A DNA stretch of 64,000 nucleotides from Alphaproteobacteria bacterium (GCA_965249135.1 OZ252220.1:1888001-1952000); one strand, 5' to 3'. Positions 27,736-41,187 are shown, numbered from the stretch's first letter. The notes: generated by a model from the letters alone, not told the origin. Program-made: numbers and translations.

Positions 27736-27806
27736 GGCGGGATCAAACCTAGCGGAAAGCACGACCTCTGAACAGCAAGCGCGCTTGCACAAGGTTTCGG
27801 TAAGGA

Positions 27807-28034
27807 ATGTCTACTATGCTTGATGGCGTCATGGCGAAAGCATTCGACGACATCGATCGGGAAGATCCCTTCCACCTGTCGCTCAACTTACTCGAGGCGT
27901 ATCATCGCATGGGCTTGCTTCTCGTGCCGATCGAACCCTCTGAGGAAAAGGTCGAAGCCGGTGTTCTGGCCGGCGCACCGTCGGCGGAACTCGCCGAACG
28001 AATCTACAAGGCGATGACGCGCTCGACGGATTAG
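27807..28034 (+). CDS. Small hypothetical protein
   Basis: 75-aa ORF with RBS AAGGA, divergent from pyrD; no motif recognised. Confidence 0.5.
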   Translation: MSTMLDGVMAKAFDDIDREDPFHLSLNLLEAYHRMGLLLVPIEPSEEKVEAGVLAGAPSAELAERIYKAMTRSTD

Positions 28035-28582
28035 CGATTAGTGCTTGCACTAAAACGCCGGGCAAGTTCACTCAGGAAATTCGGCGCTGAATGGCTGTTC
28101 GAAGTCTTTTCCTGGCTTCGCTTGTACACGTAAATCCCAAGAACGCTTAAGCCCACGATCCAGATCGCGCTTAACTGCCCAAGCGCGCCAATGACGCCGC
28201 CGGCGCGTGCCGGTTCAAAGGCGATCACATAGGCCACGGCTAGCATCTGGGCGAACCAGGTAAAGGCCAGGATGTAGCCGAAGGTCGGGCGCATCCGCCG
28301 CACATAGCCATCCTCCGAGCGCGCCTCCGCACGGATCGTTTGATTGATCTCGCTTAGGATCTTTGCTTCCCGTTCCGCATCGATCGCCACCATCCGTTCG
28401 ACGTGGCGGTTCGCTTCGCTTACGACTTCCGGGGAGATCGTTCCTTTTTCGATCGCCGAGCCGACCCCGTCGAGGGCATCGGCCGCCGATTTCGCGATCG
28501 GATGATCGAGCCTGCCAAGGGCGCTGCCTACCGTTTTTACGAGCAGCGGCAGGCCGATCTGGGCGAGAAGGGCCGCCAGCAT
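28031..28582 (-). CDS. Holin, 3-TM type (GTA_holin_3TM-like)
   Basis: EARSEDGYVRRMRPTFGY, two TM helices, then LGIYVYKRSQEK. Confidence 0.75.
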   Translation of the reverse strand: MLAALLAQIGLPLLVKTVGSALGRLDHPIAKSAADALDGVGSAIEKGTISPEVVSEANRHVERMVAIDAEREAKILSEINQTIRAEARSEDGYVRRMRPTFGYILAFTWFAQMLAVAYVIAFEPARAGGVIGALGQLSAIWIVGLSVLGIYVYKRSQEKTSNSHSAPNFLSELARRFSASTNR

Positions 28583-29015
28583 CTAGGCATCCTCCCGGTA
28601 GTAGAGGTGGCTCCCGAAGGTGACGGCGGGCGTTCGCCCCTGGGCCCAGACGGGAAACGCATCCTCGGAATGAAAGCGCGTCGCACCTTGGGTCGGGTCC
28701 CTTAACACGCCGGCAAGCGCCCGCCTGGCGATACGGGAGGCAAGCCTGAAAAGGGCACGCGTCCTTGTGGGCGTCGGGCGGGGTCCGGGCCTTCCCGATC
28801 CGTTCCTCGCAAAGGATTTCAAAGTTTTTTCCGTCCGTTCGGTTCGTCATTTCCAGTTGGGCTCGGTTCAGGATCGCGGCGGCGATCGCCTCCATGTTGC
28901 GGACGTTTCCCCGCTTTCCTTGACACCCCTTCGCGCTTTCCGCGTAGATGGCTTCGGCGAGCAAACGGGTAAGCCGTTGGCGCTCGCTTTCCGGAAATTT
29001 GCGTCTTCTTTTCAA
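28583..29015 (-). pseudogene. SleB/Hydrolase_2-like cell wall hydrolase (putative endolysin), +1 frameshift near 28735
   Basis: LAEAIYAES...MEAIAAAILNR in one frame and RIARRALAGVLRDPTQGATRFH...PVWA...GSHLYY in the next. Removing one G from GGG at 28735-28737 joins them as FQACLRIARR. Confidence 0.75.
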
Positions 29016-29332
29016 CGGTGCCTCTGAATTTGATTGTCGAGCTTGTCTTCGATCCGCTGCAGATGGCGCGTGAGCCGAATCTCCACGTCCTTGAGGCACG
29101 CCATCGAGGCATAGGATTTCGCGACTTCCAGCTTGAAGGCGGAGAGACTCTCCCGGTGCTCGTCGATTCCTTCCTCGAGCAAGTGATGGAACCGAAAAAG
29201 AGATGCCTGCCCTTCGCTCCGGGCGCGCCAGATAAGCCAGAAGAGTCCGGCAAACGTTGGGATCTCGACACCGGTAATCCACCAGATGAGATTGATATCC
29301 CAGTGAAACCCCATCCCAGTCTCCCTGTTCAA
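29012..29332 (-). CDS. Phage-cluster membrane protein (one TM plus coiled coil)
   Basis: WWITGVEIPTFAGLFWLIW TM segment, then FKLEVAKSYAS...RIEDKLD; coupled to both neighbours. Confidence 0.7.
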   Translation of the reverse strand: MNRETGMGFHWDINLIWWITGVEIPTFAGLFWLIWRARSEGQASLFRFHHLLEEGIDEHRESLSAFKLEVAKSYASMACLKDVEIRLTRHLQRIEDKLDNQIQRHR

Positions 29333-30801
29333 ATTTCGAAATTCGTCTTTGCAACGACACTTTGTGCGCCTCGCCAGTCCCGCCGGGTTGGTGCCGGCGT
29401 CACGGGAAGGCGGACCGGTTCGGCGAGTAGGCAGCCACTCACCGCATCCAGGCCGTCATCCTGAACGTCGATGCCGGGCTGCCATTCCCGCATTTCCGTG
29501 ATGAACGGGCTTGCCCAGACGCTGCGGTGGGCATGCAAGGCCCCCGCCGCGAGTACGGCGTCGAACACATCCAGGATTCGAAAATCCTTGGCATGGGTCG
29601 AGACCGCCTCAAGAACGCTCGTGCCGAGGTCGGCCATCGCAAGCTCCCGGCGCAGCAATCCGGGCAGAAAGCGTCCAAGCCCATTCGTTTCCAGCGATAG
29701 GCTTGGGAGATAAAGCCCCTTAAGAAATTCAACGACCTGACGGCAGAGTTGTGTTGCCTCATCGAGCTCGGAATCCGGATCCCAGGCAAAGTAGTGAACG
29801 CGATGCAGCCAATACCCGCCATCCTCATCCGTATAGACGGCAGCGACGACGTTCCTGTCCCCGCGCGCCGGCGCGCCGAAGGCTGGATCCCACCAGCAAC
29901 TCGCGGAAACGAGGCGCTTTCCTTCGAGGGTGAGGCTCGCCACCTTGTTTGATTCGCGATAATCGAGCTCGCCTTCATAAAGACGCAATCGGTCGGGATC
30001 GAGACGGCTCTCCATCGCGTTTACTTCCTCGAGCATCATTTGACTCGCGAACTTGTTCGGTCCGCTTCGTCGCTCGATCGCCGCGATTTTCTGCTTCGAG
30101 AAACGCTTCGGCCAACGGCTTCTTCCATTTTCGTCGAATAGAGGAAGCTCCAGACGCTTGAAGCCGTCGAGGTAGGGTTGCGTCTCCTCGGCTTCCGGCC
30201 GCGCTTGTTCGGCATAGATCGTGTAATAGGTGTGCGGCGTACCGACGTATAGTTGCAAACCACCGGGTACGAGTACGTAGTCGATCTCGGCGAGTTTCGT
30301 ACGCAGATTGGCCCGCTTGGGAACGGAGTCGGAAGTGTTCGGTACTTCAACATCGTCACAAAGAACGATGTCTGCCCGGCTTCCGGTCACGTTCGCATTG
30401 ATTCCGCGCCCCAACATGGAAGGATCACGAAGTCGCATACGACGATTAACGGTAAATTGCGAGGCTGCCCACTGATCTGCGCGTTTTGGTTTTAGGCCCC
30501 GCGTAAGGGGATGGCGCTCGATGATCTGTTTGACGTTGCGGACCATCTTGTTTGCCAGCTCCTGCTCGGCAGCAAGGACCAGAATCCGCAAGTTTGAATT
30601 TTTGGCGAGCAGCCAGGCGGAAAAAAGTCCGGCGATTGTCGACTTCCCACTGTCTCGAAAGGCAAGCAGTAGAAGCTCGCGATCCCCATTTTTCCAGCGT
30701 GCGTCCAGCCAGTTTGCAATCTCCAGATGCAGCTTTGGGGTGGATAAGGATTGAAGGCGATTCCAGAGCCAGACGAATTCCGGAAATGTCGGTCCGCTCA
30801 T
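29329..30801 (-). CDS. terL: Terminase large subunit (T7 gp19-like)
   Basis: Walker A AFRDSGKST, VTGSRADIVLCDDVE, GTPH, nuclease WDPA...ETNG...DDGLDA. Confidence 0.92.
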   Translation of the reverse strand: MSGPTFPEFVWLWNRLQSLSTPKLHLEIANWLDARWKNGDRELLLLAFRDSGKSTIAGLFSAWLLAKNSNLRILVLAAEQELANKMVRNVKQIIERHPLTRGLKPKRADQWAASQFTVNRRMRLRDPSMLGRGINANVTGSRADIVLCDDVEVPNTSDSVPKRANLRTKLAEIDYVLVPGGLQLYVGTPHTYYTIYAEQARPEAEETQPYLDGFKRLELPLFDENGRSRWPKRFSKQKIAAIERRSGPNKFASQMMLEEVNAMESRLDPDRLRLYEGELDYRESNKVASLTLEGKRLVSASCWWDPAFGAPARGDRNVVAAVYTDEDGGYWLHRVHYFAWDPDSELDEATQLCRQVVEFLKGLYLPSLSLETNGLGRFLPGLLRRELAMADLGTSVLEAVSTHAKDFRILDVFDAVLAAGALHAHRSVWASPFITEMREWQPGIDVQDDGLDAVSGCLLAEPVRLPVTPAPTRRDWRGAQSVVAKTNFEI

Positions 30802-31097
30802 TCCTCCTCCACCATCTTGACGAGCGCGGCTCGTGCTTCGGCGATCAGTTGCGACATGTCTTCGGTGGCTGCCTCGTCGTCGTCCCCGTTCACCTCCGCC
30901 CAGCGGGCCATGCGGATCAACAGCTCCATATGGGCGAGCGCCGCTTTACAGGCAACGTGGTGGGCCGCAAAGCCTTTTGGGTCCTTCGGCTGCTGTTCGG
31001 TGGCGAAATGACGATAGCCACTCAGCGCCTTATCCAGCAGGCTGGGAAGCGCGGCGTGAACCCGCTTCCGCAGGGCCGCCATGTCTTTCACCATCAC
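30798..31097 (-). CDS. Hypothetical protein, positional candidate for terminase small subunit
   Basis: 99-aa helical-looking ORF coupled directly upstream of terL. Function inferred from position only. Confidence 0.55.
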   Translation of the reverse strand: MMVKDMAALRKRVHAALPSLLDKALSGYRHFATEQQPKDPKGFAAHHVACKAALAHMELLIRMARWAEVNGDDDEAATEDMSQLIAEARAALVKMVEEE

Positions 31098-32230
31098 ACT
31101 GGCGCCGTGGCGAACAACAGGATCGCGATGTCACGGGTGCTGGCGAGCCGGTTCTCGATATAAAGCTTGCCGTCCGTATGGGCTGAATAGGTGATCGTGT
31201 TGGGATTTCCCGTCGTCCCGGTCAAGGCGCCGGTCGTCGATTCGACGCCGGTGATGTTCGCAATCAGGTCACAAAAGGGGAAGGTCGCCACCCGCCAAGA
31301 GAAGAGCGCACCTGCCGAATCCCCCAACTGGTTGAGTCCAAAGGCAAGCGTGATTCCACCATTGGCAGGTGGCGTAAAGCTGGTTGCCGTATCCGTCGCG
31401 AGGGAAAATGTCTGGAAGTCCACCTTGGTCCCCGCCAGCGTCTTCAGGATTTCCCAGCCAAGGTCGGTACCGGCGGCATTGACTTTCAGCACCTGATCCG
31501 CCGTTCCAAGCGCCAGTCGCTGGGCGGCCGAAGCGCCTCGGGCAACAAGATCTCCTTGCGTCGTAAGAAGATCGAGTTCGTTACCGGAAACCGTGATTTC
31601 GTTCGCATCCGAAGAAAGACCGACACCACTGCCGGCGACAAGGGATTTGAAGCGAAGGGTAACCCCGGATTTTTGCGCGAAAACTCCCTCGCCGCCGCCC
31701 AGGTTGAGACCGTCGTTCGACTCACCGCCAAGATCGGGATCGGCTTGCGTCGCGGCCCGGTCATAAACCGCCGGTTCACCGAACTGTCCGAAGCTAAGCA
31801 GCTTGTCTGCCCGGGTTGCGACCGGTGGCAAAGACATATCCGTGTCGATGTCGTGTACATCTTGGTGAAGCGCGTCCTGGGCAACGCTTTCCACCGTTTG
31901 TACAAACATCGTAAGTTTATCGAGCTCCTCGTTGATGATAGAGGCACGGAAATCTCCCCCTTCCTGAAAATCCGTGCTGCGCGCGACCGGCATGTCCCGG
32001 CGAATGGTGATTCGTATGCCGTTTACGGGCGGCGAGTCGAAAACGACGTTGCCGCCGCTGCTGTTACCGACGCCGGTGATCGTGTAGGAGGTTGGTGTTC
32101 CACCATCGTCAAAAAACACTTTGAGATCGGCGGCATCGAAGATCGGAAAGGGATAAACGAAACTGGTTTGCACGCCATCGGCTGTGTATTGCATGCGCGG
32201 CCGTACGTCACCAACGGTGAGTTCACTCAT
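31094..32230 (-). CDS. Tail fibre protein (T7 gp17-like N-terminal anchor)
   Basis: YTADGVQTSFVYPFPIF...RSTDFQEGGDFRASIINEELDKL anchor, followed by Gly/Thr-rich fibre segments. Confidence 0.8.
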   Translation of the reverse strand: MSELTVGDVRPRMQYTADGVQTSFVYPFPIFDAADLKVFFDDGGTPTSYTITGVGNSSGGNVVFDSPPVNGIRITIRRDMPVARSTDFQEGGDFRASIINEELDKLTMFVQTVESVAQDALHQDVHDIDTDMSLPPVATRADKLLSFGQFGEPAVYDRAATQADPDLGGESNDGLNLGGGEGVFAQKSGVTLRFKSLVAGSGVGLSSDANEITVSGNELDLLTTQGDLVARGASAAQRLALGTADQVLKVNAAGTDLGWEILKTLAGTKVDFQTFSLATDTATSFTPPANGGITLAFGLNQLGDSAGALFSWRVATFPFCDLIANITGVESTTGALTGTTGNPNTITYSAHTDGKLYIENRLASTRDIAILLFATAPV

Positions 32231-32278
32231 GCCTTAATCCTCTTCCGGTTGTTATCGGTAAATCTTCGAGAATGAAAA

Positions 32279-32752
32279 CTAGCGTCCAAACAACGAAGTT
32301 CCGGCGCTTCGCAGAAGTGGGACGCCCCTTTGCAGCGTTTGTAGCCGACCGCGCGCACGCGCATCTGCCGCCTGTAAGAGGTTGATCCGTCCCCGTGACA
32401 GACGGGCGTTTTCGATATCGCGAATCTGCGCGTTGCGAAGAAAGGCATCTTCCGCACCTGCTTGCTTGCTTTCTGCGACTAGCCCGCCCAGAACGGCAGC
32501 AGCGGAACCTTCTGCAGGGTTTAATCCTCGGCCGGCAAAGCGGGCACGCCGGGCTGCAAGTTCCTGACTAAGAAAACCCTTGCGACGTTGTTCCTCAATC
32601 TCGCCAAGACGTCGAAGTTCGCCAATTCGTGTTCGCGCGGCTGCATCGTTTGCCGAAAGTTGGGCTAGATTCTGTCTTGCCTGGGCGCGCGCCGTCTGCT
32701 GGGCAGAAAACACGTTAAGGCCAAGCGTTGCGATCGTAGCTAAAGCAGCCAT
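32279..32752 (-). CDS. Putative internal virion / ejection protein (gp14-like)
   Basis: 157 aa, Ala/Gln/Arg-rich, hydrophobic N-terminus, ARFAGRGL...GSA pattern; coupled (TGATG) to the tail tube B stop. Confidence 0.6.
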   Translation of the reverse strand: MAALATIATLGLNVFSAQQTARAQARQNLAQLSANDAAARTRIGELRRLGEIEEQRRKGFLSQELAARRARFAGRGLNPAEGSAAAVLGGLVAESKQAGAEDAFLRNAQIRDIENARLSRGRINLLQAADARARGRLQTLQRGVPLLRSAGTSLFGR

Positions 32753-34657
32753 CAGTCGTTCACCATGATTTCGGTTGTGACGGACAAAAGGGTGAAGGGA
32801 TAGGGGGTATCCTGCTCGATGCGCCAAAGCGCTTCCGTTCCCTCCGATTTCCAGCCAAGTGCACGCACGCGCTTGTTTCCGGTGAAGGCGGCGGGTGCGG
32901 AGTCCAAAACGCCGGATGGCCCGAGCGTCTTGAACGGAAGCTCCTTCGGCCCCTTGCCGATATCCACCCTGAGCGCCTTCGTCTCATGGAGCCGGAAAGC
33001 CGCTTCAATCAACCGAAGCGGAGCAACCTGGCGACTTCCAAACCGACCATCAAGGACCAGCGGCAGAGGCTCGATGTCATGGGTATAGGGAAGGCCGATC
33101 TCGACGGTTGTCGCGGGTTCATTCAGGGTGACACTGCCGCTTGCTACCACCGCGTCGTCCCGAAGAATGCCGTCGGCGATAACCTTGACCGTTTTACCTT
33201 CGATGTGGTCGAGGCCGCTCCATTGGGTCGCGGGTGTACCGCTCTGACCAGTAAGGGCCGAATCGGTGTGGACCGATTCGTCGAAAAGCTCGATCAAGAA
33301 TTGGCCGTTTCGATCCACGAGAACGTAAACGTCACTGCCAACGACGGCGACGGAAAGAAAATTCCCATCCGTTTCTTGCAGCGTCCATGCGGTGACCTGT
33401 TCGGCGCGGAAAGCAGTCACCGTCGCAAGCGTCCCATCCCCCATGACGATGTGAACGAGCCGCCTGGATTGATCAAAATCTTGATCAACCGGCGCGTTCA
33501 TCAGGTGTTGGGATGGCAAGGCCAGATCGTTCGCCTGATAGGCTTGCTCGATGTCCGTAAACAGGAATTCCCGAATCTCTTTCTCGTTCCGAGCGAGAAA
33601 AAGCGTTGCCCCGCCGACGTTGATCGGCGGCAGGGTGCGATCGATGGGAGACCCGATCCGGGTTTGGCGGCGAAGCTGGACCGTCGTCGGCGTCAAGGGA
33701 TCGCCCGTCACCATCCATTCGGCGCCAGAGGTGAAGACTTGCAGGTGTCGGCCTGAAAACACCGAGCGGATCGCATTCACTTGATCGGAAAGAATTGCGA
33801 ACTCGATGGCCTCGTCATCGAGGCCGGTGCCAACATTGAAGTTGAAAATATCGGCCGATTTCGACATCCAAAGCCGGTTCGGTAAATCCCGCGATCCACC
33901 AATGATCAGTCGATCCTGATGGAAGGCGACGGAAACCGGATGGCCTCGCACCGAAGAAAAGGCCTGCTCGTCCCAATCCTTTGTGGAGTTTGTCGAATTC
34001 AAGGTCTCCTGGACGGTAGCATTTGCCAGGGTCGGCGAGACGATGGAGCTGATCAACACTTCCTTTCCCCCAAGCCGGAAGTTTGTCCCCCCGTGACCGG
34101 TCACGAAGATGTCTCCCGTTGCGGTAAGCGTGATGTTACCGGTTGTCGCGCTTGGCTGGAGCTGAATACTGTCGTGGGCAAATTTGAAGTAGGGTTGGCG
34201 CGTGCCCTCCGAATCTGACACATAGCTCCAAGTATCGATTGTCCACGCCGTATCCGACGTTCGTGTAATCTGGCGGGGTGTGTTCGGGGTGGACGACAAG
34301 GAGTGTGTCCGCGCTTTGCGTCCAGTTAATCTGAGGAAGCCTCGCCACGGTCCAAGGCGTCGACGTAATTTCCGCAACCCATTGCTCATCCCGGTAGATA
34401 TCAATCCGCGAATCGGTAAAGACGAGCAGATAAACCTGCTCCGTGTTGAACTCGAAGGAAATGAACCTGCCGGTATCTTGGGCCGTATCGATGAAACGCA
34501 GGCCCGCGCGCCGTTGGATGCCCCCTGTCGGAAAGATGAACGTGTTCCGAAGTTTTGCCGCTCCGTTTTCGTAGGCGCTAAGGTCGCCTCGGCCAAGGAG
34601 AAGCGGCGACAATTCACCGGAGGTGAAATTTGTCTGCGTTTTGTGGACGCGGGGCAT
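32752..34657 (-). pseudogene. Tail tubular protein B / nozzle (T7 gp12-like), frameshifted near 34275-34282
   Basis: N-terminal part (34136..34657 ORF) QTNFTSGELSP...GGIQRRAG...QSADTLLVVHP continues in another frame as PRQITRT...FHQDRL...GLDHIEGKTV...GLPY. Confidence 0.8.
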
Positions 34658-35226: not shown

Positions 35227-35242
35227 GAAAATCTCCGTTTTG

Positions 35243-35276
35243 AAAAAGAGCAGCCCCGCGGCCGAAACCGCGGGGC
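35243..35276 (-). terminator. Intrinsic terminator between head and tail genes
   Basis: Minus strand GCCCCGCGG-tttcgg-CCGCGGGGC followed by tgctcTTTTT. Confidence 0.7.
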
Positions 35277-35298
35277 CAGAGCATGAAGGACGTTGGAC

Positions 35299-35568
35299 TT
35301 AGTCCGTGTCCGTACCGCCGACGGCGGTGATGTCGTCGACGTCGACAATCGTCCCCGTATTGCTTGATACGAAGAAGATTCCAGCTGCCATCGTGCCGCC
35401 GGTAGCCACGTTTGCGAGGATCATGTCGCCAACGCGAATGACATCGGCAGCGTCGTTAAAGTAGCCAGCTGTATCGACCGCCGTTGCCGCATCCGGCGTA
35501 GTGTAGTGCCAGAGTGTGAAGCCATTGGCATAACCAATGACACTTAGATCTTGTGGTTTAAACGCCAT
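35299..35568 (-). CDS. Small virion protein after capsid (possible decoration protein)
   Basis: MAFKPQDLSVIGYANGFTLWHY.T.D....V...GYFN......VGD.I; directly follows the capsid gene. Confidence 0.7.
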   Translation of the reverse strand: MAFKPQDLSVIGYANGFTLWHYTTPDAATAVDTAGYFNDAADVIRVGDMILANVATGGTMAAGIFFVSSNTGTIVDVDDITAVGGTDTD

Positions 35569-35570
35569 GA

Positions 35571-36389
35571 TTAACTCTCCAAGCAACGCATGACGACGAG
35601 GCCGGTGGTGTCAACCAGACACGCACCTTGCGACATTGAACTGTTGACGAAGTGAGCGGCGCGATCGCCATGCCAAGTAACGTCGGTGCTGACGTCCGCA
35701 CCACTGGCATGCCCAACGGCCGTCTTGTGGTACCAGAAGCAGAACCGAACGCTCGTAGTGAGCGTCAGTCCGGAATGCGGCATCCACAAGGTCCCAAGCC
35801 AGAACTTGGCTTGAGTGCCGCGCCAGGGAAGCTCCTCACTGCCCACGAAGTCCGCATTTGCGAATTCGGGGATTTCAAGCAAATCGCTCCACTGTTTCCA
35901 GCCAATGATGGCGTGGCGTTGCCCGTCGTCGGGAACGTCTGCATCGCCAAGCATCTCGAAGGCCGTCAGTACCTTGGCCTTCGTCAGGCCGTCCGTATTG
36001 GCGCCTGCGAAGTTCGTCGACGTATCGAGTTGCGTGATGATGAGTTCATCCGCCTTGCGACCCAGTGCAAAGGCACCGGCATTCGCAATCACGTGACGTT
36101 CATCGATGTTGGTCTTCAGCTCATCCAGCTTGTCGACCCAGTCACCGGCGTAGTAATCCGCCAACGTACATTCGACCGGCGTGTGGTCGATGTTCATCAC
36201 GGGTACTTGGCCGTGACGCGCTTTCGTTGACGCACTTCCCTTGCCGACTTTCTGGAACACGGTGGACGATCCACGAACATTGTTTTTCGTGCGGACGGTA
36301 TTGCGAAGCTTGCTACCCATACGCTGGTAAGCCTCGCGCACCTCCCGCTCGAACTGCTTAATGAACGTTTGGTCGATCGTTGTGGCCAA
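35571..36389 (-). CDS. Major capsid protein
   Basis: TTG start with GAGGA RBS; IDQTFIKQFEREV..AYQRMGSKLRNTVR, VDKLDELK, ALGRKADELII; lies after the scaffold gene. Confidence 0.88.
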   Translation of the reverse strand: MATTIDQTFIKQFEREVREAYQRMGSKLRNTVRTKNNVRGSSTVFQKVGKGSASTKARHGQVPVMNIDHTPVECTLADYYAGDWVDKLDELKTNIDERHVIANAGAFALGRKADELIITQLDTSTNFAGANTDGLTKAKVLTAFEMLGDADVPDDGQRHAIIGWKQWSDLLEIPEFANADFVGSEELPWRGTQAKFWLGTLWMPHSGLTLTTSVRFCFWYHKTAVGHASGADVSTDVTWHGDRAAHFVNSSMSQGACLVDTTGLVVMRCLES

Positions 36390-36526: not shown

Positions 36527-37309
36527 TCAGGCTTCGGCAGATTCCGGATAGAGCTTCTGGAATCCTTCCGATACCCGGTTGACGAAATCTGGGTCACGGT
36601 CCCGCCAATAGCGGGGATCCTTGATCATTTCTCGAAGCTGGCTCTCGTCGTTGGTCGCGGCACCTGTGCCATTTGACTGTAGGATCGCAGGCTCGCCTTC
36701 CGCCATCATCCGATGCATAACGAAGATCCCTTCGGCGGTTGTTGAAAGCGCGCCCAGGACGGCTTCCGGAAGGTGTGCCTTTCCCCATGCAAAGAGTTGA
36801 CGCGAGATTTCACGCCATTTCTCTTCACCGCCGAAATGGCGCTCGAGGCGTTCCGTCTCGCGTTCTGCTTCGAATTCGGCCCCGGCATTTTCCAGAATCG
36901 GCAGCACCTTTTCCACGGCAAGGTCGTAGACAAGTTGTGCCTGCGCAGACGTGAAGCCGGCTTGAAAGAGCTGTTCATTGACTTCCGGATCCGCGGCTAT
37001 GAGCTCGCTCTTCATTTCCAACTTGTATTCGTCCGGGGAGGTCGGTACACTAAGCGCCTTTCGGAAACTATGAATTTTCTCTTCCGTCGCGCTTTCGCCA
37101 GGCAGGGGGACCATCGTGCCAAGCTTACGTTCAAGTTCTTGATAGGATTTTAGAAGCATGCCGATACGCACTTCCCCAGTATCGGCGTTTCGAAACTTCT
37201 CGGGGATCGCTTCCGTCGTCTCCGTCGGTGTCTCATCGATTGGTTTGATTGTTTCGGGGCCAGGCGCCACCGTCTCCTCCGGCTCCGTCGTCAAAAGATT
37301 CGCGTCCAT
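36527..37309 (-). CDS. Capsid assembly scaffolding protein
   Basis: Acidic; PEKF...LLKSYQELERKLG, C-terminal LREMIKDPRYWRDRDP; lies between portal and capsid. Confidence 0.8.
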   Translation of the reverse strand: MDANLLTTEPEETVAPGPETIKPIDETPTETTEAIPEKFRNADTGEVRIGMLLKSYQELERKLGTMVPLPGESATEEKIHSFRKALSVPTSPDEYKLEMKSELIAADPEVNEQLFQAGFTSAQAQLVYDLAVEKVLPILENAGAEFEAERETERLERHFGGEEKWREISRQLFAWGKAHLPEAVLGALSTTAEGIFVMHRMMAEGEPAILQSNGTGAATNDESQLREMIKDPRYWRDRDPDFVNRVSEGFQKLYPESAEA

Positions 37310-37632
37310 AGCGATTTCCTCTTCCTAACCTTCGGTGTGGAGTCGAGCGCCGGTTCCGGCTCGATCCGGCCACCCCCCCGTTCGATCATGGCAGCGAGAT
37401 AGCCGACAAGCTGGCGCTGTCCCTCGAGATGGCGAAGGCCGCATCCGATGCGTTCGGCCCAAGATGGCGGCCAAGGGTCAACGTCGTCAGATGCCGGAAG
37501 ACCGGTTTGGCCATCCGGCGATCGAAACGTGCGGGCGAAGGCCTCGGCCGTCTCAAGCAGGACATCCTTGCCGGTCTCGCTCGGGAGGCTGGCTTCATCG
37601 AACCAGTTCCAGCCGGCATCATCCACGGCCAT
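37291..37632 (-). CDS. Small phage head-module protein (Bbp19-like) with two compensating indels
   Basis: FARTFRSPDGQ | VFRHLTTLTLGRHLGPNASDA (alternative frame) | LRHLEGQRQLV; frame switches near 37503 and 37438. Confidence 0.6.
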   Translation of the reverse strand: MAVDDAGWNWFDEASLPSETGKDVLLETAEAFARTFRSPDGQTGLPASDDVDPWPPSWAERIGCGLRHLEGQRQLVGYLAAMIERGGGRIEPEPALDSTPKVRKRKSLWTRIF

Positions 37633-39223
37633 CCTCCTCGGCGTTGGCGGTGTCTTCCGCAGCTTGTGCCGACTCGTTCCCGCCTAGGGCGGCGGCAAGG
37701 ACGGGGGCGGCCTCCGCGACAAGGGCCTCCTCGACGGCTTCTGCTACTTCGGCAAGGGCGATGGCCGGCGCTTCCCGGATCAACTGGTTGGGCACGCCGA
37801 GTTTCCGTCCCATCCACCGGACGGCGGCAGGCAAATCGATGGCGGCCATCCCCTCAGACCCAAAGGATGCTGCCGCATTCAGCCAGGTTAAGGTGAGTTG
37901 CACGTCCTTTTGAATCTGGCTTTGGGCGAGAGGCGAGCGGTATTGCAAGTCGACAAGGCGGCCATCGATAAAGATTTCCGGGATCTCGCCGCGCCGGCGA
38001 AGGATCTGTAACCCGCGGCTCACCAAAGGCGTCAACAATTCCGACTGCAGCCGGCCATAGGTTGCCCCAAGAATGCGTGTCATCTCGGCGGCACGTTCCA
38101 GCACTTCCGTCGCCGTCATGCGGGGGCCGTCAACCTGCCCCAACTGGTCGACGAGCAGCGCCTTTCGGATGCGACTCCGCAGGTCATCGAGGACGATCTG
38201 GGAGACGTCGAAACGCCCGGGCGCTTCGAGTGGCGTAAGCCCTGACGAACCGACGGCCTTCGGGATGATGGTTCCAGGCACGAGCTTGATGTTTGCCGGG
38301 TTAAGCACGCCGTCGTCATCCGCCTGCCAGATGCCGGTCACGGCGATCGTCGCGTTTTTGAGAACGAGCTCAACGACTTTATTCGCCGTCTTAATGTCGG
38401 GTAGCGCCTTCATTACCGGCGAACGACCGTAGATTTCACCCGGCGCCTTCAGCCAGCGGAAATTAAGGAAGGGCGACGAATCGAATTCACCGGTCGCTAA
38501 AACCCATGGTTCCGCCACCTCCCCTTTCTCGCTTTCAAGAAGCGCGTAATAGGCGTACCGGACCCCATCGGGAATGACCGCCTCGATAACCGTGAACTTC
38601 TTTGGGTTGTAGGCCTCGCCCTCCGGCTTTACCCATTCCGGCAAGGGCGCCTTCGGGAAACGCGTTTGGATGGCATCCGCATCGAGCGCGTTTCTGCGAA
38701 ACGTCGTATCGAGCCTGCCGGTGGGGCCTTCGTTGAGGACGGCTTGTGAAAGCGGGATCGCGGTGAACCGAAAGGCGCTCGCCGCCCCTGGCTCCGCTTC
38801 CTCGAAAAGTAGGCACGCCGTTCCCCCGGTAACGAGATCGAGGAAACCCTGATGCATCTCGATGGCGAAGTTCGACCGGTCGAGATGCGATTGCAGCGTT
38901 TTTGCCGCCTGGTCGAGCAGATCGGTAATTGCGGCTTCTTCCTCTTCGAATATCTCTGTTCCGGCGGCGAGACCGAACCAGCGCGCCCAAGGTGGCGTAA
39001 GCTGAGCCAGCAGGCTTGCCGCCAGTTGATCCACCGCATCCGGTGCCGTGCCGCCGAACAGCTTATCCGTCTTTTTCTCGCCGGGCCGGGGGGTGCGCGT
39101 GAATTCGTCCCGTTGCGGCAAGGCAAAATCGTAAGCTTCCTGCCAGTGGCTCTCCCAGAAACTTCGCCGGACGAGTGCCTGACGGTAGCGTGTGTAAACT
39201 GCCTCGGCGGTTAAGCTTGGCAT
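37619..39223 (-). CDS. Portal / head-to-tail connector (T7 gp8-like)
   Basis: WESHWQEAYDFALP, TAPDAVDQLAASL..LTPP, RW...GEIYGRSP...ALPDIKT.N, MTATEV.ER..E....LG..YGRLQSE. Confidence 0.92.
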   Translation of the reverse strand: MPSLTAEAVYTRYRQALVRRSFWESHWQEAYDFALPQRDEFTRTPRPGEKKTDKLFGGTAPDAVDQLAASLLAQLTPPWARWFGLAAGTEIFEEEEAAITDLLDQAAKTLQSHLDRSNFAIEMHQGFLDLVTGGTACLLFEEAEPGAASAFRFTAIPLSQAVLNEGPTGRLDTTFRRNALDADAIQTRFPKAPLPEWVKPEGEAYNPKKFTVIEAVIPDGVRYAYYALLESEKGEVAEPWVLATGEFDSSPFLNFRWLKAPGEIYGRSPVMKALPDIKTANKVVELVLKNATIAVTGIWQADDDGVLNPANIKLVPGTIIPKAVGSSGLTPLEAPGRFDVSQIVLDDLRSRIRKALLVDQLGQVDGPRMTATEVLERAAEMTRILGATYGRLQSELLTPLVSRGLQILRRRGEIPEIFIDGRLVDLQYRSPLAQSQIQKDVQLTLTWLNAAASFGSEGMAAIDLPAAVRWMGRKLGVPNQLIREAPAIALAEVAEAVEEALVAEAAPVLAAALGGNESAQAAEDTANAEEDGRG

Positions 39224-39225
39224 CG

Positions 39226-39444
39226 CTATTCCCCCAAGAGCTGCTTGCGACGGGGAAACGCATCCTGCGGCAGCAGCACGCCACGGAAGGAGGTGGCGAT
39301 CGTACCCGCCCGTCCGCGCCGGCGAAGGCCTTGGCTGCTCGTTGCCTTTGCTGCTTGCGAGGCCTCTTTGGGCGGGCGCGCGGGTTGGGGTAAGGCCCGC
39401 GGCCACACGGGTAGCGGTCTTGGGGAGCCAAACAGACTAGACAT
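39226..39444 (-). CDS. Small Pro/Arg-rich virion protein preceding portal
   Basis: MSSLFGSP.P...RGRAGTIATS.RG...KQLLGE pattern; RBS GGGGG; first gene after the late-type promoter. Confidence 0.65.
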   Translation of the reverse strand: MSSLFGSPRPLPVWPRALPQPARPPKEASQAAKATSSQGLRRRGRAGTIATSFRGVLLPQDAFPRRKQLLGE

Positions 39445-39455
39445 TACTTGACCCC

Positions 39456-39489
39456 CTTTCCCGAAAGCCGATCTTTCCCGAAAGCCGAT
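39456..39489. repeat. Perfect 17-bp tandem duplication
   Basis: CTTTCCCGAAAGCCGAT x2 (39456-39472, 39473-39489). Confidence 0.95.
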
Positions 39490-39555
39490 GTGAAAAAGTG
39501 AGCACCTCCCGAGGGGAACCGGGAGGCGCCGAATAGATGGGTCGTGATGGTAGAA

Positions 39556-39587
39556 AGGAATATAGTCCTATATCCCCTCGCCGTCAA
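39556..39587 (-). promoter_or_regulatory. Sigma70-type promoter of the structural operon with overlapping palindromic operator
   Basis: Minus strand TTGACG-N17-TATATT; AGGA-ATATAG-TCCT (39556-39569) covers the -10. Confidence 0.75.
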
Positions 39588-40048
39588 GAGGAAAGGAAGC
39601 CAAGGACGAGACTCCGTTTACCGAGTCGATCAAGGTGCCTGTAAAGTTGCCAGGGCGTAAAGACATTTGCCGCCCTTATGCCAAGGACACGTTTCACCGC
39701 CTCGACGCAGGTGAAGGGCCGAAGCGGAAGCGATGTCCAGGAAGATGGGAAGCAGTGTGTCGGCGGTGCCGGTAAGATTTCGGTAGTGACGACGCAGAGC
39801 CCATGTTGCCGGTACCAGTCGGCAAGGTCGAAATCGAGCGGCAGATCGAGTGCGACGATCTCCGTTCGATGAACAAGCGGGTCATAAACAAGCCAGCGCG
39901 AACCTTGAAGGATCACCAAGAAACAGTGGCGGTAGCCGCGTTTCAAAATACGCAGCCAAGGAAGGTCCGTCTGATTCGAAAAGACGACAAGGACAGGAAG
40001 CGCCTGCGCCTCCCATTCGTCTCGCAAGTTGCAAGCCTTTCGTCTCAT
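39584..40048 (-). CDS. Hypothetical protein, possibly a permuted papain-like (NlpC/P60-type) Cys hydrolase
   Basis: GYRHCF...FTCVEAVKRVLG...TPWQLY (His before Cys, TP..L end); ATGA-coupled to the upstream gene. Confidence 0.6.
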   Translation of the reverse strand: MRRKACNLRDEWEAQALPVLVVFSNQTDLPWLRILKRGYRHCFLVILQGSRWLVYDPLVHRTEIVALDLPLDFDLADWYRQHGLCVVTTEILPAPPTHCFPSSWTSLPLRPFTCVEAVKRVLGIRAANVFTPWQLYRHLDRLGKRSLVLGFLSS

Positions 40049-40410
40049 TGCACGATCCCCTTGCCACGCAAAACACAGGCCAGCCGATGCAGCGCTTCCT
40101 CCCATAGAAGCGCGGCCGTCTCTTCCCGTTGGCGTTTTCCGTCGGGTGGCAGCAGTTTTTCGCCATATTCCGACAGCACCAGAAGGTGTTCGCGGCGTAA
40201 TTGCCGTTGCCGGTAAAGACGGTTGACAGCCGAAAGCACATCGTCGGGATCGCAAGGTCGCAACGCCTCGCCGCATCCGGCCGTGATCCGTGCGCCCGCT
40301 CGCCGGGCTTGAAAGCATTGAACGAACCAAAACCAAGCCTCCTCGGCCGTGGCAAACGGCACGCCTGCAAGGGGGAGGTAGGGTCTTGGGGCGTAGCGCT
40401 CGCGTCGCAT
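40045..40410 (-). CDS. Hypothetical protein divergent from the repressor (candidate activator)
   Basis: 121 aa, PFATAEEAWFWF...RPCDPDD...RLYRQRQL...LWEEAL.RL...LRGKGIV; function inferred from position. Confidence 0.65.
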   Translation of the reverse strand: MRRERYAPRPYLPLAGVPFATAEEAWFWFVQCFQARRAGARITAGCGEALRPCDPDDVLSAVNRLYRQRQLRREHLLVLSEYGEKLLPPDGKRQREETAALLWEEALHRLACVLRGKGIVQ

Positions 40411-40476
40411 TCTGCTTCGATCCTCGTGACCGGAAATTCAGGCCTAGGGGGGAGTAAAAACGGCCTCTAAGAAACA

Positions 40477-40554
40477 AGGAATTTATTCCTTTATCAAGAG
40501 ACATAGGATAATATTCCTGGTGTGATGGGGGGGCAAGTATAAGAAAATCTTCTT
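40477..40554. promoter_or_regulatory. Divergent control region with repeated palindromic operators
   Basis: AGGA-ATTTAT-TCCT (40477-40490), AGGA-TAATAT-TCCT (40505-40518), degenerate AAGA-AAATCT-TCTT (40541-40554); leftward promoter TTGCCC-N17-TATTAT (40536-40508). Confidence 0.75.
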
Positions 40555-41187
40555 ATGTTGCGTCATGCCGACATATGGACCGCCATCGATAACTTCGCCA
40601 GAGTTCACGGGCTTTCGCCTTCCGGGCTCGCGCGCCGCGCCGGCCTCGATCCGACGACGTTTAATAAAAGTAAGCGGATCACTCGAGAGGGGAAGCCGCG
40701 GTGGCCCAGCACCGAAAGCATTTCGAAAATTCTGGATGCAACCGATAGCACCTTTGGCGAGTTTGCCATTCATCTTGGGAACGAAGCCGCGCAAGGCTTA
40801 GTACAACGGGTTCCGGTGATTGGCTTCGCCCAGGCGGGCAATGAGGGCTATTTTGACGATGCCGGCTACCCAACTGGAAGTGGTTGGGATGAAACAGTAT
40901 TTCCATATATTGGCGATGCGCATGCTTATGCGCTTGAGGTTAGCGGCGATAGCATGCAACCGATCTATCGTGACGGGGACATCATCCTCGTCTCGCCGGC
41001 AAAAAACATTCGTCGAGGCGATAGGGTCGTCGTAAAAACGAAAGAAGGCGAGGTGCTGGCGAAGGAATTAAAACGTCAAAGCAGCAAGCGCATCGAACTT
41101 CTCTCCCTAAACCGCACCTATGGGGATCGGATCCTGCCCGTCGAGAATGTTGAATGGATGGCGCGCGTCGTTTGGGTCAGTCAGTAA
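40555..41187 (+). CDS. HTH + S24 peptidase (LexA/CI-like) transcriptional repressor
   Basis: SGLARRAGLDPTTFNKSKR...RWPSTESISKIL HTH; AQAG putative cleavage site; GDSM Ser and LAKEL Lys dyad. Confidence 0.9.
   Translation: MLRHADIWTAIDNFARVHGLSPSGLARRAGLDPTTFNKSKRITREGKPRWPSTESISKILDATDSTFGEFAIHLGNEAAQGLVQRVPVIGFAQAGNEGYFDDAGYPTGSGWDETVFPYIGDAHAYALEVSGDSMQPIYRDGDIILVSPAKNIRRGDRVVVKTKEGEVLAKELKRQSSKRIELLSLNRTYGDRILPVENVEWMARVVWVSQ

What the first reader, a model, noticed from the sequence alone, without database searches (positions are those of the whole stretch)
28031..41187. Candidate podovirus-type gene transfer agent: T7-like particle operon without replication or integration genes, embedded between pyrD and lysS
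Seen: about 17 co-oriented, mostly stop/start-coupled genes in the order small protein, portal, Bbp19-like, scaffold, capsid, small virion protein, tail tube A, tail tube B, gp14-like, fibre, small ORF, TerL, TM protein, SleB-like hydrolase, 3-TM holin. Upstream are two further genes and a divergent repressor. I recognise no integrase, polymerase, primase/helicase, RNA polymerase or flanking direct repeat. Base composition looks host-like by eye, and the cluster sits among core genes. Established: characterised alphaproteobacterial GTAs (RcGTA, Caulobacter GTA) are ~15 kb replication-less head-tail clusters, but of siphovirus type (HK97 protease, tape measure), whereas this portal, tail tubes and TerL are T7-like. 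Inference: an independently domesticated short-tailed GTA or similar particle system. I recall similar clusters in other Rhodospirillales but cannot verify that here.
Basis: partly seen in the sequence, partly recalled or inferred. Interest (0 to 1): 0.92.

Follow-up and report, generated by a model that had tools for sequence, protein, structure and literature searches.

The report
Domesticated T7-like particle operon, GTA candidate
A complete short-tailed phage particle, packaging and lysis gene set without any replication or integration genes has sat at the same chromosomal site in many Rhodospirillales-type bacteria since before their families diverged, which makes it a strong candidate for a second, podovirus-derived kind of alphaproteobacterial gene transfer agent.

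Summary
Between lysS and pyrD lie 17 co-oriented minus-strand genes plus a divergent S24/HTH repressor. They are collinear with T7 genes 8 to 19. No integrase, replication gene or att repeat was found.

The gene calls need correcting. The 306-aa and 150-aa ORFs are spurious. In this assembly tail tube B and the endolysin each carry a frameshift.

- All six species of the genus hold cluster genes at this site.
- A genome of another family has both flanks.
- In two Azospirillum genomes the halves lie 314-334 kb apart, and the capsid half still adjoins pyrD.
- In 49 of 71 informative genome loci, host genes or a split interrupt the scaffold/capsid junction.
- Cluster genes have dN/dS of 0.02-0.40 and the same dS as flanking host genes.
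- The portal tree follows host taxonomy.
- 65 of 401 sampled Alphaproteobacteria carry one portal copy.
- Composition is host-like.

Packaging of host DNA and transfer were not tested. This copy may be inactive. My searches found no paper describing this element.

Verdict: an anciently domesticated podovirus-derived particle system, most likely SOS-induced and GTA-like. It is a new variant of a known kind and of high interest.

The parts
40555..41187 (+). Divergent CI/LexA-like repressor (HTH + S24 peptidase) with AQAG cleavage-site, GDSM and Lys motifs
   Evidence: PF00717 1.2e-25, HTH_26 0.0025. phrog_4 4.7e-30. Motifs conserved in an alignment of 76 homologues. A canonical LexA lies elsewhere in the genome. 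dN/dS 0.01-0.17.
40477..40518 (.). Two copies of the palindrome AGGA-N6-TCCT (40477-40490, 40505-40518) in the divergent promoter region; putative operators
   Evidence: All 3 matches in the 64-kb window lie in the cluster's two regulatory regions; 0.92 are expected by chance. There are 19 in the 2.1-Mb genome. A TTGAC box is present in 109 of 119 homologous intergenic regions, against 17.6 in shuffles.
40045..40410 (-). First gene of the leftward operon, 121 aa, four-helix protein of unknown function (family F1); candidate early regulator
   Evidence: tblastn of homologues, 47-52% identity. Conserved alignment A3. AF2 pLDDT 83.5; no PDB match with E below 2. No Pfam, PHROG or NCBIfam hit.
39584..40048 (-). 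Second early gene, 154 aa, invariant His and Cys; unknown function
   Evidence: Homologues align only to the C-terminal part of the 306-aa ORF. Alignment A2 has invariant H26 and C99. AF2 pLDDT 81.9; best PDB E-value 0.28, not significant. Start ATG at 40048 overlaps the upstream stop.
39501..39587 (-). Promoter-like site (TTGACG-17-TATATT) carrying a third AGGA-N6-TCCT palindrome (39556-39569), followed by a 12-bp GC-rich hairpin with a T run (39530-39501)
   Evidence: A terminator-like hairpin at this position occurs in 35 of 143 homologous loci, against 4 of 143 controls.
39226..39444 (-). 72-aa gene just upstream of the portal
   Evidence: tblastn of homologues. Weak phrog_831 match, 6e-4.
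37619..39223 (-). Portal (T7 gp8 type), 534 aa from the ATG at 39223
   Evidence: PF12236 4.1e-138. PDB 9efk portal 1.8e-32 and T7 portals about 1e-14. Start.
37291..37632 (-). 113-aa gene, weak Bbp19-like match
   Evidence: PF25181 0.0022, below the cut-off. tblastn hits in 55 of 80 genome loci.
36527..37309 (-). Scaffolding protein (T7 gp9 type)
   Evidence: PF05396 2.1e-13. Found in 78 of 80 genome loci.
35571..36389 (-). Major capsid protein, 272 aa
   Evidence: PF19821 2.1e-81. Closest solved structure is the LME-1 capsid 9eg4, 1.3e-23, which is T=7. 91-95% identical within the genus.
35299..35586 (-). 95-aa virion-associated protein, at the position of the LME-1 head decoration gene
   Evidence: phrog_18004 1.4e-19. 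Gene order of LME-1 from PMC12407071. The decoration role is inferred from position only.
35251..35278 (-). Terminator-like hairpin after the capsid/g06 genes
   Evidence: 12 pairs, 9 of them GC, followed by a T run. At the same position in 24 of 106 loci, against 2 controls.
34657..35226 (-). Tail tubular protein A / adaptor (T7 gp11 type)
   Evidence: phrog_394 1.1e-43.
32752..34657 (-). Tail tubular protein B / nozzle (T7 gp12 type); frameshifted in this assembly at a (GT)n run near 34270-34282
   Evidence: phrog_376 3.6e-102. PDB 8ck1 nozzle 1.5e-63 for the intact G005 orthologue. Five intact homologues of 627-637 aa (a sixth, of 837 aa, begins further upstream) align to frame -1 (34657 or 34636 down to about 34250) and then frame -2 (about 34280-32755). 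Contigs of 3 other studies carry an extra GT.
32279..32752 (-). 157-aa helical protein, gp14-like internal virion protein (lead)
   Evidence: ESM Atlas score 0.96 to viral clusters in which 11-19% of members carry PF24072 T7_gp14. Family F4 follows the nozzle gene in most of its 19 loci.
31094..32230 (-). Tail fibre; the N-terminal 115 aa is a T7 gp17-type adaptor domain
   Evidence: phrog_1640 1.3e-36, residues 4-116. PDB 9efk orf22 1.5e-10.
30798..31097 (-). 99-aa gene at the position of the T7 small terminase (gp18); function not shown
   Evidence: phrog_31793 1.4e-26, unknown function. The Atlas gives only hypothetical clusters.
29329..30801 (-). Large terminase, T7 type
   Evidence: NCBIfam NF033889 1.2e-126, 423.5 bits. 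phrog_38 3.1e-70. PDB T7 gp19 4bij 2.3e-23.
29012..29332 (-). 106-aa protein with a transmembrane helix and a coiled coil; spanin-like by architecture (inferred)
   Evidence: phrog_29007 1.5e-26. Sequence. Orthologue in G002.
28583..29015 (-). SleB-like endolysin; frameshifted in this assembly by one extra base in a C run near 28735
   Evidence: PF07486 1.3e-5 on the C-terminal ORF. The intact 144-aa G002 orthologue aligns in two frames. Contigs of 3 other studies lack the extra base.
28031..28582 (-). 3-TM holin
   Evidence: PF11351 GTA_holin_3TM 4.2e-12. phrog_3427 1.5e-10.
41297..42889 (-). Host flank: class-I lysyl-tRNA synthetase
   Evidence: PF01921 6.4e-138. Adjacent to the repressor end in 13 of 80 genome loci and in several class-sample loci.
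26641..27792 (-). Host flank: dihydroorotate dehydrogenase pyrD
   Evidence: PF01180 7.4e-85. Adjacent to the lysis end in G002, G005, G001, G003 and G049, and in the Azospirillum second loci.

Best explanation
This is an anciently domesticated, chromosomally fixed derivative of a T7-like podovirus: a 'viriform' operon. It encodes portal, scaffold, capsid, adaptor, nozzle, one small internal protein, fibre, T7-type terminase and a lysis cassette. It has no means to replicate, integrate or excise.

Shown:
- It is inherited vertically at the lysS...pyrD site across several families.
- It is kept under purifying selection.
- It tolerates host-gene insertions and even a split into two distant loci.

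Inferred mechanism:
1. A RecA-cleavable CI/LexA-like repressor sits on AGGA-N6-TCCT operators.
2. DNA damage removes the repressor.
3. Two small early proteins are made from the divergent promoter.
4. Transcription then passes an internal terminator into the structural genes.
5. Probably T=7 short-tailed particles assemble, and the terminase fills them with DNA.
6. Holin, endolysin and a spanin-like protein lyse the producer cell.

The locus cannot amplify or excise, and in many hosts it is split. The DNA packaged must therefore be chromosomal, so the particles would act as a gene transfer agent. The large T7 ejection proteins gp15 and gp16 are missing. This suggests delivery only as far as the periplasm, with uptake by host functions, as described for RcGTA (recalled from the literature).

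The copy in this assembly has two frameshifts and may itself be inactive.
For: No integrase, replication gene or att site:
- No flanking repeat was found.
- The nearest tyrosine recombinase is about 270 kb away.
- A recombinase HMM hits 4 of 208 stored loci.
- The recurrent flank families that gave a Pfam match are host genes: aminotransferase IV, GGDEF-EAL, ODP and MCP, FabI-like, PRC barrel, GcrA, NUDIX and ParA-like. 9 of the 20 family representatives submitted gave no Pfam match.

Same site:
- All 6 species of the genus have cluster genes at the lysS and/or pyrD flank.
- G049, of another family, has both flanks.
- lysS is adjacent in 13 of 80 genome loci.
- In Azospirillum A26 and TSH64 the portal half and the capsid-TerL half lie 334 and 314 kb apart, and the second half still abuts pyrD.

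Junction between scaffold and capsid, in the 80 genome loci: 22 contiguous, 30 with an insert, 17 split, 2 rearranged, 9 too short to tell.

Selection, from 12 pairs by NG86:
- Named cluster genes have dN/dS 0.02-0.40. The unnamed repressor-adjacent ORFs F12 and F13 reach 0.59.
- Window against G002: dS is 0.45-1.10 for cluster genes and 0.76-1.39 for host genes.

Phylogeny and distribution:
- The portal tree groups the Azospirillum, Magnetospirillum-group, Defluviicoccus and Caenispirillum rows by host.
- The Mantel test of lysS against portal distances gives r = 0.54; 0 of 5000 permutations reach it.
- 65 of 401 sampled Alphaproteobacteria have one portal match at E <= 1e-100.

Other points:
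- Composition is host-like.
- The repressor carries cleavage motifs.
- Operators and internal terminators are described.
- Nearest isolated phages are at most 37% identical in the portal and 28% in TerL.
- The IMG/VR relatives listed sit on contigs mostly of 25 kb or less; 73 of the 80 kept loci were long enough to classify the scaffold/capsid junction.
Against: - No data exist on particles, packaged DNA or transfer.
- In this assembly the nozzle and the endolysin are frameshifted. The contigs of the probable source run agree with the assembly.
- G005 has cleanly lost the portal gene, and no other portal was found in its 99%-complete genome.
- The portal was not found in 336 of the 401 sampled Alphaproteobacteria, so loss is frequent.
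- The terminase is of the T7 type. In T7 it cuts at defined ends. Known GTA terminases group with headful packagers (PMC7947584, abstract and listing only).
- The small-terminase assignment of the 99-aa gene is not shown.
- Spearman correlations of cluster against lysS distances are low, 0.04-0.54, because most pairs are saturated.
- The recombinase screen used a small HMM. It did not cover serine recombinases or transposases.
- The exact palindromic operator is present in only 12-27 of 119 homologous intergenic regions.
Confidence: 0.58

Rival explanations
1. A domesticated particle system kept for a function other than gene transfer. One model is a PBSX-like, SOS-induced defective phage whose particles kill or adsorb to competitors. 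Another is an altruistic lysis device. In either case the packaged DNA would be incidental and would not be delivered.
For: - An SOS-type repressor is paired with a full lysis cassette.
- There is only one small internal protein between nozzle and fibre, and no large ORF that could be gp15 or gp16. DNA injection into the cytoplasm may therefore be impossible.
- The same evidence of vertical descent and purifying selection applies.
Against: - Terminase and portal are conserved as strongly as the capsid. TerL has dN/dS 0.03-0.07 and the portal 0.04-0.22. A pure killing or lysis device would not need them.
- The fibre and nozzle are conserved.
- RcGTA also lacks cytoplasmic delivery and still transfers genes (recalled).
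Confidence: 0.2
2. In this genome, and perhaps this genus, the locus is a decaying relic. It was once selected and is now being lost, and it does nothing here.
For: - There are two frame-disrupting indels in this assembly, and the 100%-identical contigs of run X1 share them.
- The portal is deleted in G005.
- Host genes in the same window and in the flanks are intact.
- The portal was not found in most of the sampled class.
Against: - Contigs from three other studies, about 98.6% identical over 15.7 kb, carry both genes in frame.
- G002 has every gene intact.
- The X1 depth is only about 5, so assembly error at a C run and a (GT)n run cannot be excluded.
- dN/dS between the window and G002 is 0.05-0.32. 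Any decay must therefore be very recent.
Confidence: 0.15
3. An active small temperate podovirus or satellite. It would insert site-specifically next to lysS using host recombinases and would rely on a helper or the host for replication.
For: - Gene order is compact and phage-like, with a CI-like repressor.
- IMG/VR lists hundreds of such regions as viral.
- Two marine MAG loci (L090, L100) show a permuted order, as if circularised.
Against: - dS equals that of host neighbours.
- The tree follows the hosts.
- Both flanks are conserved across families.
- The halves are separated by 314-334 kb, and each stays next to its ancestral neighbour.
- Host genes are inserted inside the operon.
- There are no att repeats.
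- Contigs of 4 runs show no excision or circle joints. Single contigs join the cluster to each flank, and X4 record 9 spans 27000-42754.
Confidence: 0.04

Closest known systems
RcGTA / Caulobacter GTA (alphaproteobacterial GTAs; PMC5721377, PMC9632790 and PMC9662315, abstracts seen)
   Same: - A head-tail-terminase cluster of about 13-15 kb without replication or integration genes.
- Vertical inheritance with the host and purifying selection.
- Host-like composition.
- Additional or split loci.
- A holin of the PF11351 'GTA_holin_3TM' family.
- Internal terminators that a dedicated regulator may have to overcome. Anti-termination in the Caulobacter GTA is recalled, not read here.
   Different: - The structural genes are T7-type (portal PF12236, nozzle, adaptor, T7-type TerL), not the HK97-protease, tape-measure siphovirus type.
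- Control appears to be by an S24 autocleavable repressor, not by CtrA, GafA or GafYZ.
- It is found mainly in Rhodospirillales-type lineages.
- DNA packaging and transfer are untested.
FpGTA of Faecalibacterium prausnitzii (PMC12946183, passages read)
   Same: A GTA-like element said to be 'most likely podovirus-like', encoded in chromosomal operons without autonomous replication.
   Different: - The host is a Firmicute.
- It is encoded in two loci, with baseplate genes.
- Packaging was shown experimentally there.
- No homology with this cluster was tested here.
[quoted passage not shown]
Legionella phage LME-1 and Cobetia phage Carin-1 (PDB 9eg4, 9efk, 8ck0, 8ck1; PMC12407071, passages read)
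   Same: - They are the closest solved homologues of capsid (1.3e-23), portal (1.8e-32), nozzle (1.5e-63 to Carin-1) and the fibre N-terminus.
- They share the gene order portal ... capsid, small head protein, adaptor, nozzle, fibre.
- The LME-1 capsid is T=7 and about 60 nm across.
   Different: - LME-1 is a complete inducible prophage that packages its own full genome.
- It has internal virion proteins matching those of T7.
- The present cluster has only one small candidate internal protein and no replication or integration module.
Phage T7 class III genes 8-19
   Same: The order is collinear: portal, scaffold, capsid, gp11, gp12, gp14-like, fibre, a small gene, TerL. There is a terminator right after the capsid region (Tphi in T7, recalled).
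   Different: - There is no RNA polymerase, DNA polymerase or primase-helicase.
- There is no gp13, gp15 or gp16.
- The lysis genes follow TerL.
- The element is chromosomal and repressor-controlled.
- Portal identity to isolated phages is at most 37%.
PBSX of Bacillus subtilis (recalled, not read here)
   Same: An SOS-inducible defective prophage at a conserved chromosomal site. It is controlled by an Xre-type repressor, packages host DNA, lyses the producer and cannot propagate.
   Different: PBSX is a contractile-tailed, Gram-positive element unrelated in sequence. Its particles kill and do not transfer DNA.

Membership tests
Gene transfer agent (functional class) | Phage-like structural, packaging and lysis genes in the chromosome, without replication, integration or excision functions | tested here: met
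Gene transfer agent (functional class) | Vertical inheritance with the host and purifying selection on the genes | tested here: met
   Synteny. dN/dS and equal dS. Portal tree.
Gene transfer agent (functional class) | Particles package more or less random host DNA, and not preferentially their own genes | not testable with these tools
   No particle DNA data are available. The indirect argument is that the locus cannot excise or replicate and is split in many hosts.
Gene transfer agent (functional class) | Transfer of packaged DNA to recipient cells | not testable with these tools
   Needs marker-transfer experiments.
RcGTA-like GTAs (siphovirus-derived) | Homologues of the RcGTA head-tail genes: HK97-type portal, protease and capsid, tape measure and others | tested here: not met
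   Pfam, PHROG and NCBIfam give T7-type families instead. Only the 3-TM holin family is shared.
T7-like phage (Autographiviridae type) | Own RNA polymerase plus a DNA replication module | tested here: not met
   All ORFs between lysS and pyrD are accounted for by the repressor, three small genes, and structural, terminase and lysis genes.
T7-like phage (Autographiviridae type) | Structural module: gp8, gp9, gp10, gp11, gp12, gp17 and gp19 | tested here: met
T7-like phage (Autographiviridae type) | Internal core / ejection proteins gp14, gp15 and gp16 | tested here: not met
   Only one 157-aa gp14-like candidate is present. There is no ORF of gp15 or gp16 size between nozzle and terminase, here or in relatives. 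Other loci of the genome were not searched for them.
Functional temperate prophage | Integrase, att repeats and variable presence at the site | tested here: not met
   All 6 congeners have the element at the site.
LexA/CI-type autocleavable repressor (the divergent gene) | N-terminal HTH, Ala-Gly cleavage site, and a Ser and Lys dyad in an S24 domain | tested here: met
   PF00717 1.2e-25 and a weak HTH_26 match. AQAG, GDSM and Lys are conserved. Cleavage itself was not tested.

The most novel reading that the evidence does not exclude
Rhodospirillales-type Alphaproteobacteria, among them Azospirillum, Magnetospirillum, Defluviicoccus, Caenispirillum and several reduced-genome uncultured lineages, share a second alphaproteobacterial gene transfer agent that arose independently of RcGTA.
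- It derives from a T7-like podovirus that settled between lysS and pyrD before these families diverged.
- It is switched on by the SOS response through its own autocleavable repressor.
- It uses a T7-type terminase to fill roughly 40-kb heads with host DNA.
- Having lost the gp15/gp16 ejectosome, it depends on host uptake functions.
Probability: 0.42. Interest if true: 0.92.

Novelty: new variant of a known kind. Interest (0 to 1): 0.86.

Why it matters
GTAs are known from only a handful of independent domestications, and the alphaproteobacterial ones characterised so far derive from siphoviruses.

A podovirus-derived, vertically inherited particle operon would have several consequences:
- It is present in about one sixth of the sampled Alphaproteobacteria, including plant-associated Azospirillum and magnetotactic Magnetospirillum. 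It would add a major lineage of gene exchange or SOS-triggered lysis to well-studied bacteria.
- It would show that T7-type packaging machinery can be domesticated.
- It would give a tractable system in cultured, genetically accessible hosts for asking how a virus becomes a host organelle.
- It would explain why automated tools keep calling an integrase-less prophage of about 13-18 kb in these genomes.
- It may bear on old reports of small mitomycin-induced particles in Azospirillum whose genes were never found (PMC2818188, PMC3899980).

Tried and rejected
- **Flanking att repeats.** None beyond chance was found.
- **tRNA target.** The only tRNA in the window is 12 kb away.
- **Function of the two early proteins.** Pfam, PHROGs and NCBIfam gave nothing. 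The AlphaFold models were confident, but the PDB fold searches gave no match with E below 0.1. Weak papain-like hits for the 154-aa protein are not evidence.
- **Small terminase.** The 99-aa gene matches only an unnamed PHROG and unnamed Atlas clusters.
- **Extra regulon members.** The other AGGA-N6-TCCT sites in the genome lie in or near ordinary genes.
- **RNA evidence.** No RNA holder was listed, so nothing can be said on expression.
- **Contigs laid from 4 runs.** They showed no excision joint. The short 'skips' at 27177-27653 and 41627-42636 lie in host genes and come from short foreign contigs. One 135-nt skip in the capsid gene was seen in run X8 only and was not followed up.
- **Link to the 10-kb-DNA particles of Azospirillum lipoferum and B510.** The primary paper (Boyer 2008) is not held. 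I recall its abstract describing siphovirus morphology. If that is right, it argues against the link. A T=7 head would also hold far more than 10 kb. This is left as an unverified lead.
- **Literature.** Seven full-text searches found no description of a T7-like GTA or domesticated T7-like cluster in Rhodospirillales. The library lacks most subscription journals, and supplements were closed.
- **Rows dropped.** In one search only the 16 loci holding both lysS and portal were used. In one search, gene pairs with fewer than 60 aligned codons were dropped. In one search, loci with portal identity below 50% were set aside (5 of 20 in the class sample).

Full report
**What is there**

The region 28031-41187 holds a minus-strand operon and a divergent plus-strand repressor. 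It lies between pyrD (26641-27792) and class-I lysS (41297-42889).

Profile searches identify the following genes:
- T7-type portal: PF12236 4.1e-138
- scaffold: PF05396 2.1e-13
- capsid: PF19821 2.1e-81
- adaptor / tail tube A: phrog_394 1.1e-43
- nozzle / tail tube B: phrog_376 3.6e-102
- fibre with a gp17-type N-terminal adaptor domain: phrog_1640 1.3e-36
- T7-type large terminase: NCBIfam NF033889, 423.5 bits against a cut-off of 150; phrog_38 3.1e-70
- 3-TM holin: PF11351 4.2e-12
- HTH + S24 repressor: PF00717 1.2e-25

The Bbp19-like and SleB-like matches are below the curated cut-offs. The gp14-like call rests on an ESM-Atlas lead. That lead scores 0.96 to viral clusters in which 11-19% of members carry PF24072.

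The closest solved structures are:
- Legionella phage LME-1: capsid 9eg4 1.3e-23, portal 9efk 1.8e-32, fibre N-terminus 1.5e-10
- Cobetia phage Carin-1: nozzle 8ck1 1.5e-63
- T7 TerL: 4bij 2.3e-23

LME-1 has a T=7 head of about 60 nm (PMC12407071, passages read).

**Corrections to the gene list**

- The 306-aa ORF upstream of the portal is mostly a wrong frame. Homologues place three real genes there: 40045-40410 (121 aa), 39584-40048 (154 aa) and 39226-39444 (72 aa). The portal starts at the ATG at 39223.
- The 103-aa ORF is the antisense of the repressor.
- The 150-aa 'TM protein' ORF is also a wrong frame. The real gene is 29012-29332. It encodes 106 aa with one transmembrane helix and a coiled coil (phrog_29007 1.5e-26).
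- Starts and stops overlap throughout.

**Two genes are broken in this assembly**

- Nozzle. Five intact homologues of 627-637 aa align first in frame -1 (34657 or 34636 down to about 34250) and then in frame -2 (about 34280-32755). A sixth homologue, of 837 aa, shows the same frame change but begins further upstream. The break is at a GTGTGT run.
- Endolysin. The intact 144-aa orthologue of G002 aligns in two frames. The window has one extra C near 28735.
- Contigs from three other studies are about 98.6% identical (218 differences over 15.7 kb). They have the GT and lack the extra C, so both genes are in frame there.
- Contigs of run X1 are 100% identical to the window at depth about 5. X1 is probably the source sample, and it agrees with the window.
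- Host genes around the cluster are intact.
- The breaks are therefore either recent, strain-specific inactivation or residual assembly errors.

**No mobility or replication functions**

- No flanking direct repeats beyond chance were found.
- The genome's five tyrosine recombinases are all far away. The nearest is about 270 kb off.
- Every ORF between lysS and pyrD is accounted for.
- A recombinase HMM was built from the five own proteins and iterated once. It hit 4 of 208 stored loci across relatives. Those hits lie after the scaffold gene or downstream of the tail genes.
- This screen is of limited sensitivity. It did not cover serine recombinases or transposases.
- Composition is host-like. 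GC is 58.7% against 60.2% +/- 2.6% for genome windows. The tetranucleotide distance is at the genome median.

**Distribution and synteny**

- The genome has one copy.
- All six species of the genus have cluster genes at the lysS and/or pyrD flank. G002 has a complete copy. G004, G001 and G003 are cut by contig ends. G005 is complete except for a clean deletion of the portal gene, with no Ns there and no other portal in the genome.
- A scan of 185,579 species genomes found at least 551 loci. The best 80 are almost all Rhodospirillales in the wide sense: Azospirillum, Magnetospirillum, Paramagnetospirillum and Phaeospirillum, Caenispirillum, Defluviicoccus, Thalassospiraceae, Telmatospirillum and Terasakiella. 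Portal identity is 57-69%.
- In those 80 loci the gene counts were: portal 80, scaffold 78, repressor 66, capsid 54. lysS is adjacent in 13.
- In an even sample of the class, 65 of 401 genomes have one portal match at E <= 1e-100. These include complete genomes of 0.9-1.4 Mb.
- G049, of another family, has the whole arrangement with both flanks, pyrD-holin...repressor-lysS.
- Recurrent neighbouring families that gave a Pfam match are host genes. 9 of the 20 family representatives submitted gave no match.

**Interruption and splitting**

- The scaffold/capsid junction is a hot spot. Of the 80 genome loci, 22 are contiguous, 30 carry an insert, 17 have no capsid within at least 8 kb, 2 are rearranged and 9 are too short to tell.
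- The inserts include an ODP plus MCP pair in the Magnetospirillum group, and GGDEF-EAL plus a PRC-barrel gene in A. brasilense.
- In Azospirillum sp. A26 the portal half and the capsid-to-TerL half are 334 kb apart. In TSH64 they are 314 kb apart. Both are single copy. The second half still ends next to pyrD at 54-55% identity.
- The lysS...pyrD site is thus ancestral. The element has survived chromosomal rearrangement as two loci, which a virus could not.

**Selection and phylogeny**

- NG86 estimates for 12 pairs give named cluster genes dN/dS of 0.02-0.40. The unnamed repressor-adjacent ORFs F12 and F13 reach 0.59. These values resemble those of the flanking host genes.
- dS equals that of the neighbours. 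For window against G002, cluster dS is 0.45-1.10 and host dS is 0.76-1.39.
- The capsid has the lowest dS in that pair.
- A FastTree of 87 portals groups the rows by host group.
- lysS and portal distances correlate: Mantel r = 0.54, with 0 of 5000 permutations reaching it. Rank correlations are low because most pairs are saturated.
- Kin are not independent, so these are consistency checks and not proofs.
- Nearest isolated phages are distant, at most 37% in the portal and 28% in TerL.
- The IMG/VR relatives listed sit on contigs mostly of 25 kb or less. Many are prophage calls of about 18 kb in isolate genomes.

**Regulation (inferred)**

- The repressor is distinct from the canonical LexA, which lies elsewhere.
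- It keeps an AQAG site, GDSM and a Lys. It evolves very slowly, with dN/dS 0.01-0.17.
- The palindrome AGGA-N6-TCCT occurs three times in the 64-kb window. Two copies lie in the divergent promoter region. One lies on a promoter-like site just before a strong hairpin upstream of the 72-aa gene and the portal.
- The exact motif is not widely conserved: it occurs in 12-27 of 119 intergenic regions. A TTGAC box is present in 109 of 119.
- Terminator-like hairpins recur after the second early gene (35 of 143 loci against 4 controls). They also recur after the capsid/g06 genes (24 of 106 against 2).
- This suggests a cascade from repressor to two early proteins to read-through into the late genes. 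The two early proteins have no recognisable relatives.

**Comparison with what is known**

- The element works like a GTA on every criterion that sequence can test. It is not a member of the RcGTA family.
- It lacks what defines a T7-like phage (RNA polymerase, replication genes, gp15 and gp16). It also lacks what defines a prophage (integrase, att).
- FpGTA of Faecalibacterium is described as the first podovirus-like GTA-like element (PMC12946183, passages read). It is in a Firmicute.
- Seven literature searches found no description of the present element. Supplements and most subscription journals could not be seen.
- Two Azospirillum genome papers cite mitomycin-induced particles with about 10 kb of DNA, suspected to be GTAs. 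The B510 genome paper found no prophage-like region of that size (PMC3899980 and PMC2818188, passages read).
- The primary paper is not held. I recall that it reports siphovirus morphology, so I do not claim a link.

**Verdict**

The GTA function itself is open, and this strain's copy may be broken.

Noticed in passing
L107 (G005:C28) about 13874-14259: In one congener the portal gene, the 72-aa gene and the start of the Bbp19-like gene are cleanly deleted. All other cluster genes stay intact: TerL 82%, capsid 91%. No other portal was found in that 99%-complete genome.
   Followed up: yes
L038, L049, L051, L055, L093, L095, L097 (downstream of the lysis genes): A GcrA cell-cycle regulator gene (PF07750 2.9e-30) directly follows the cluster in 7 loci, in most of them followed by a DUF4743-NUDIX gene. 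This could be mere synteny or a regulatory link.
   Followed up: no
L022, L031, L036, L041, L050, L060, L064 and others, between scaffold and capsid: A reverse-oriented pair is inserted inside the operon in the Magnetospirillum group and in some other loci. It consists of an ODP-family di-iron protein (PF19583 1e-71) and an MCP signalling protein.
   Followed up: partly
L045 and L057: Two contigs come from MAGs labelled Solirubrobacterales and Bacteroidota. They carry the cluster with Magnetospirillum-type flanks and nest among the Magnetospirillum-group rows in the portal tree. They are probably mis-binned or mislabelled.
   Followed up: partly
L090 and L100: Two marine MAG loci show a permuted order: capsid...nozzle-F4-g11 is followed directly by early gene-portal-scaffold. 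No TerL, fibre, lysis genes or repressor lie between them.
   Followed up: no
G001:C7 (L112), G043:C11, G044:C136, G023: Some genomes hold second, much more distant T7-like portal and capsid pairs. Portal identity is 26-36%, and the capsids match at 26-68%. These may be ordinary prophages of the same broad phage group.
   Followed up: no
window 27807-28034 (+): A 75-aa acidic ORF lies on the opposite strand between the holin and pyrD. An ORF sits at the same place in G002. Its function is unknown.
   Followed up: no
window 35571-36389: In the window-G002 pair and several other pairs, the capsid gene has about half the synonymous divergence of its neighbours. For window against G002, dS is 0.45 against about 0.9. 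This may reflect codon selection for high expression.
   Followed up: no
window 37372-37502 and 39239-39308: Further small indel differences separate this assembly from the contigs of other studies. They include a compensating pair 65 nt apart in the Bbp19-like gene and two insertions near the 72-aa gene. All indels seen lie in the cluster or in the short spacer beside the holin. None lies in the covered parts of lysS or pyrD.
   Followed up: partly
L028, L032, L042, L043, L054, L060, L088 and others: A repeated ORF of about 488 aa (family F14: 15 copies in 10 loci, no Pfam match) often lies within or beside the cluster. It may be an insertion sequence.
   Followed up: no
G087, G116, G117, G255, G380 (class sample): Complete or near-complete genomes of only 0.9-1.2 Mb still carry a single portal of this family. 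L211 (G117) has a nearly complete compact cluster.
   Followed up: partly
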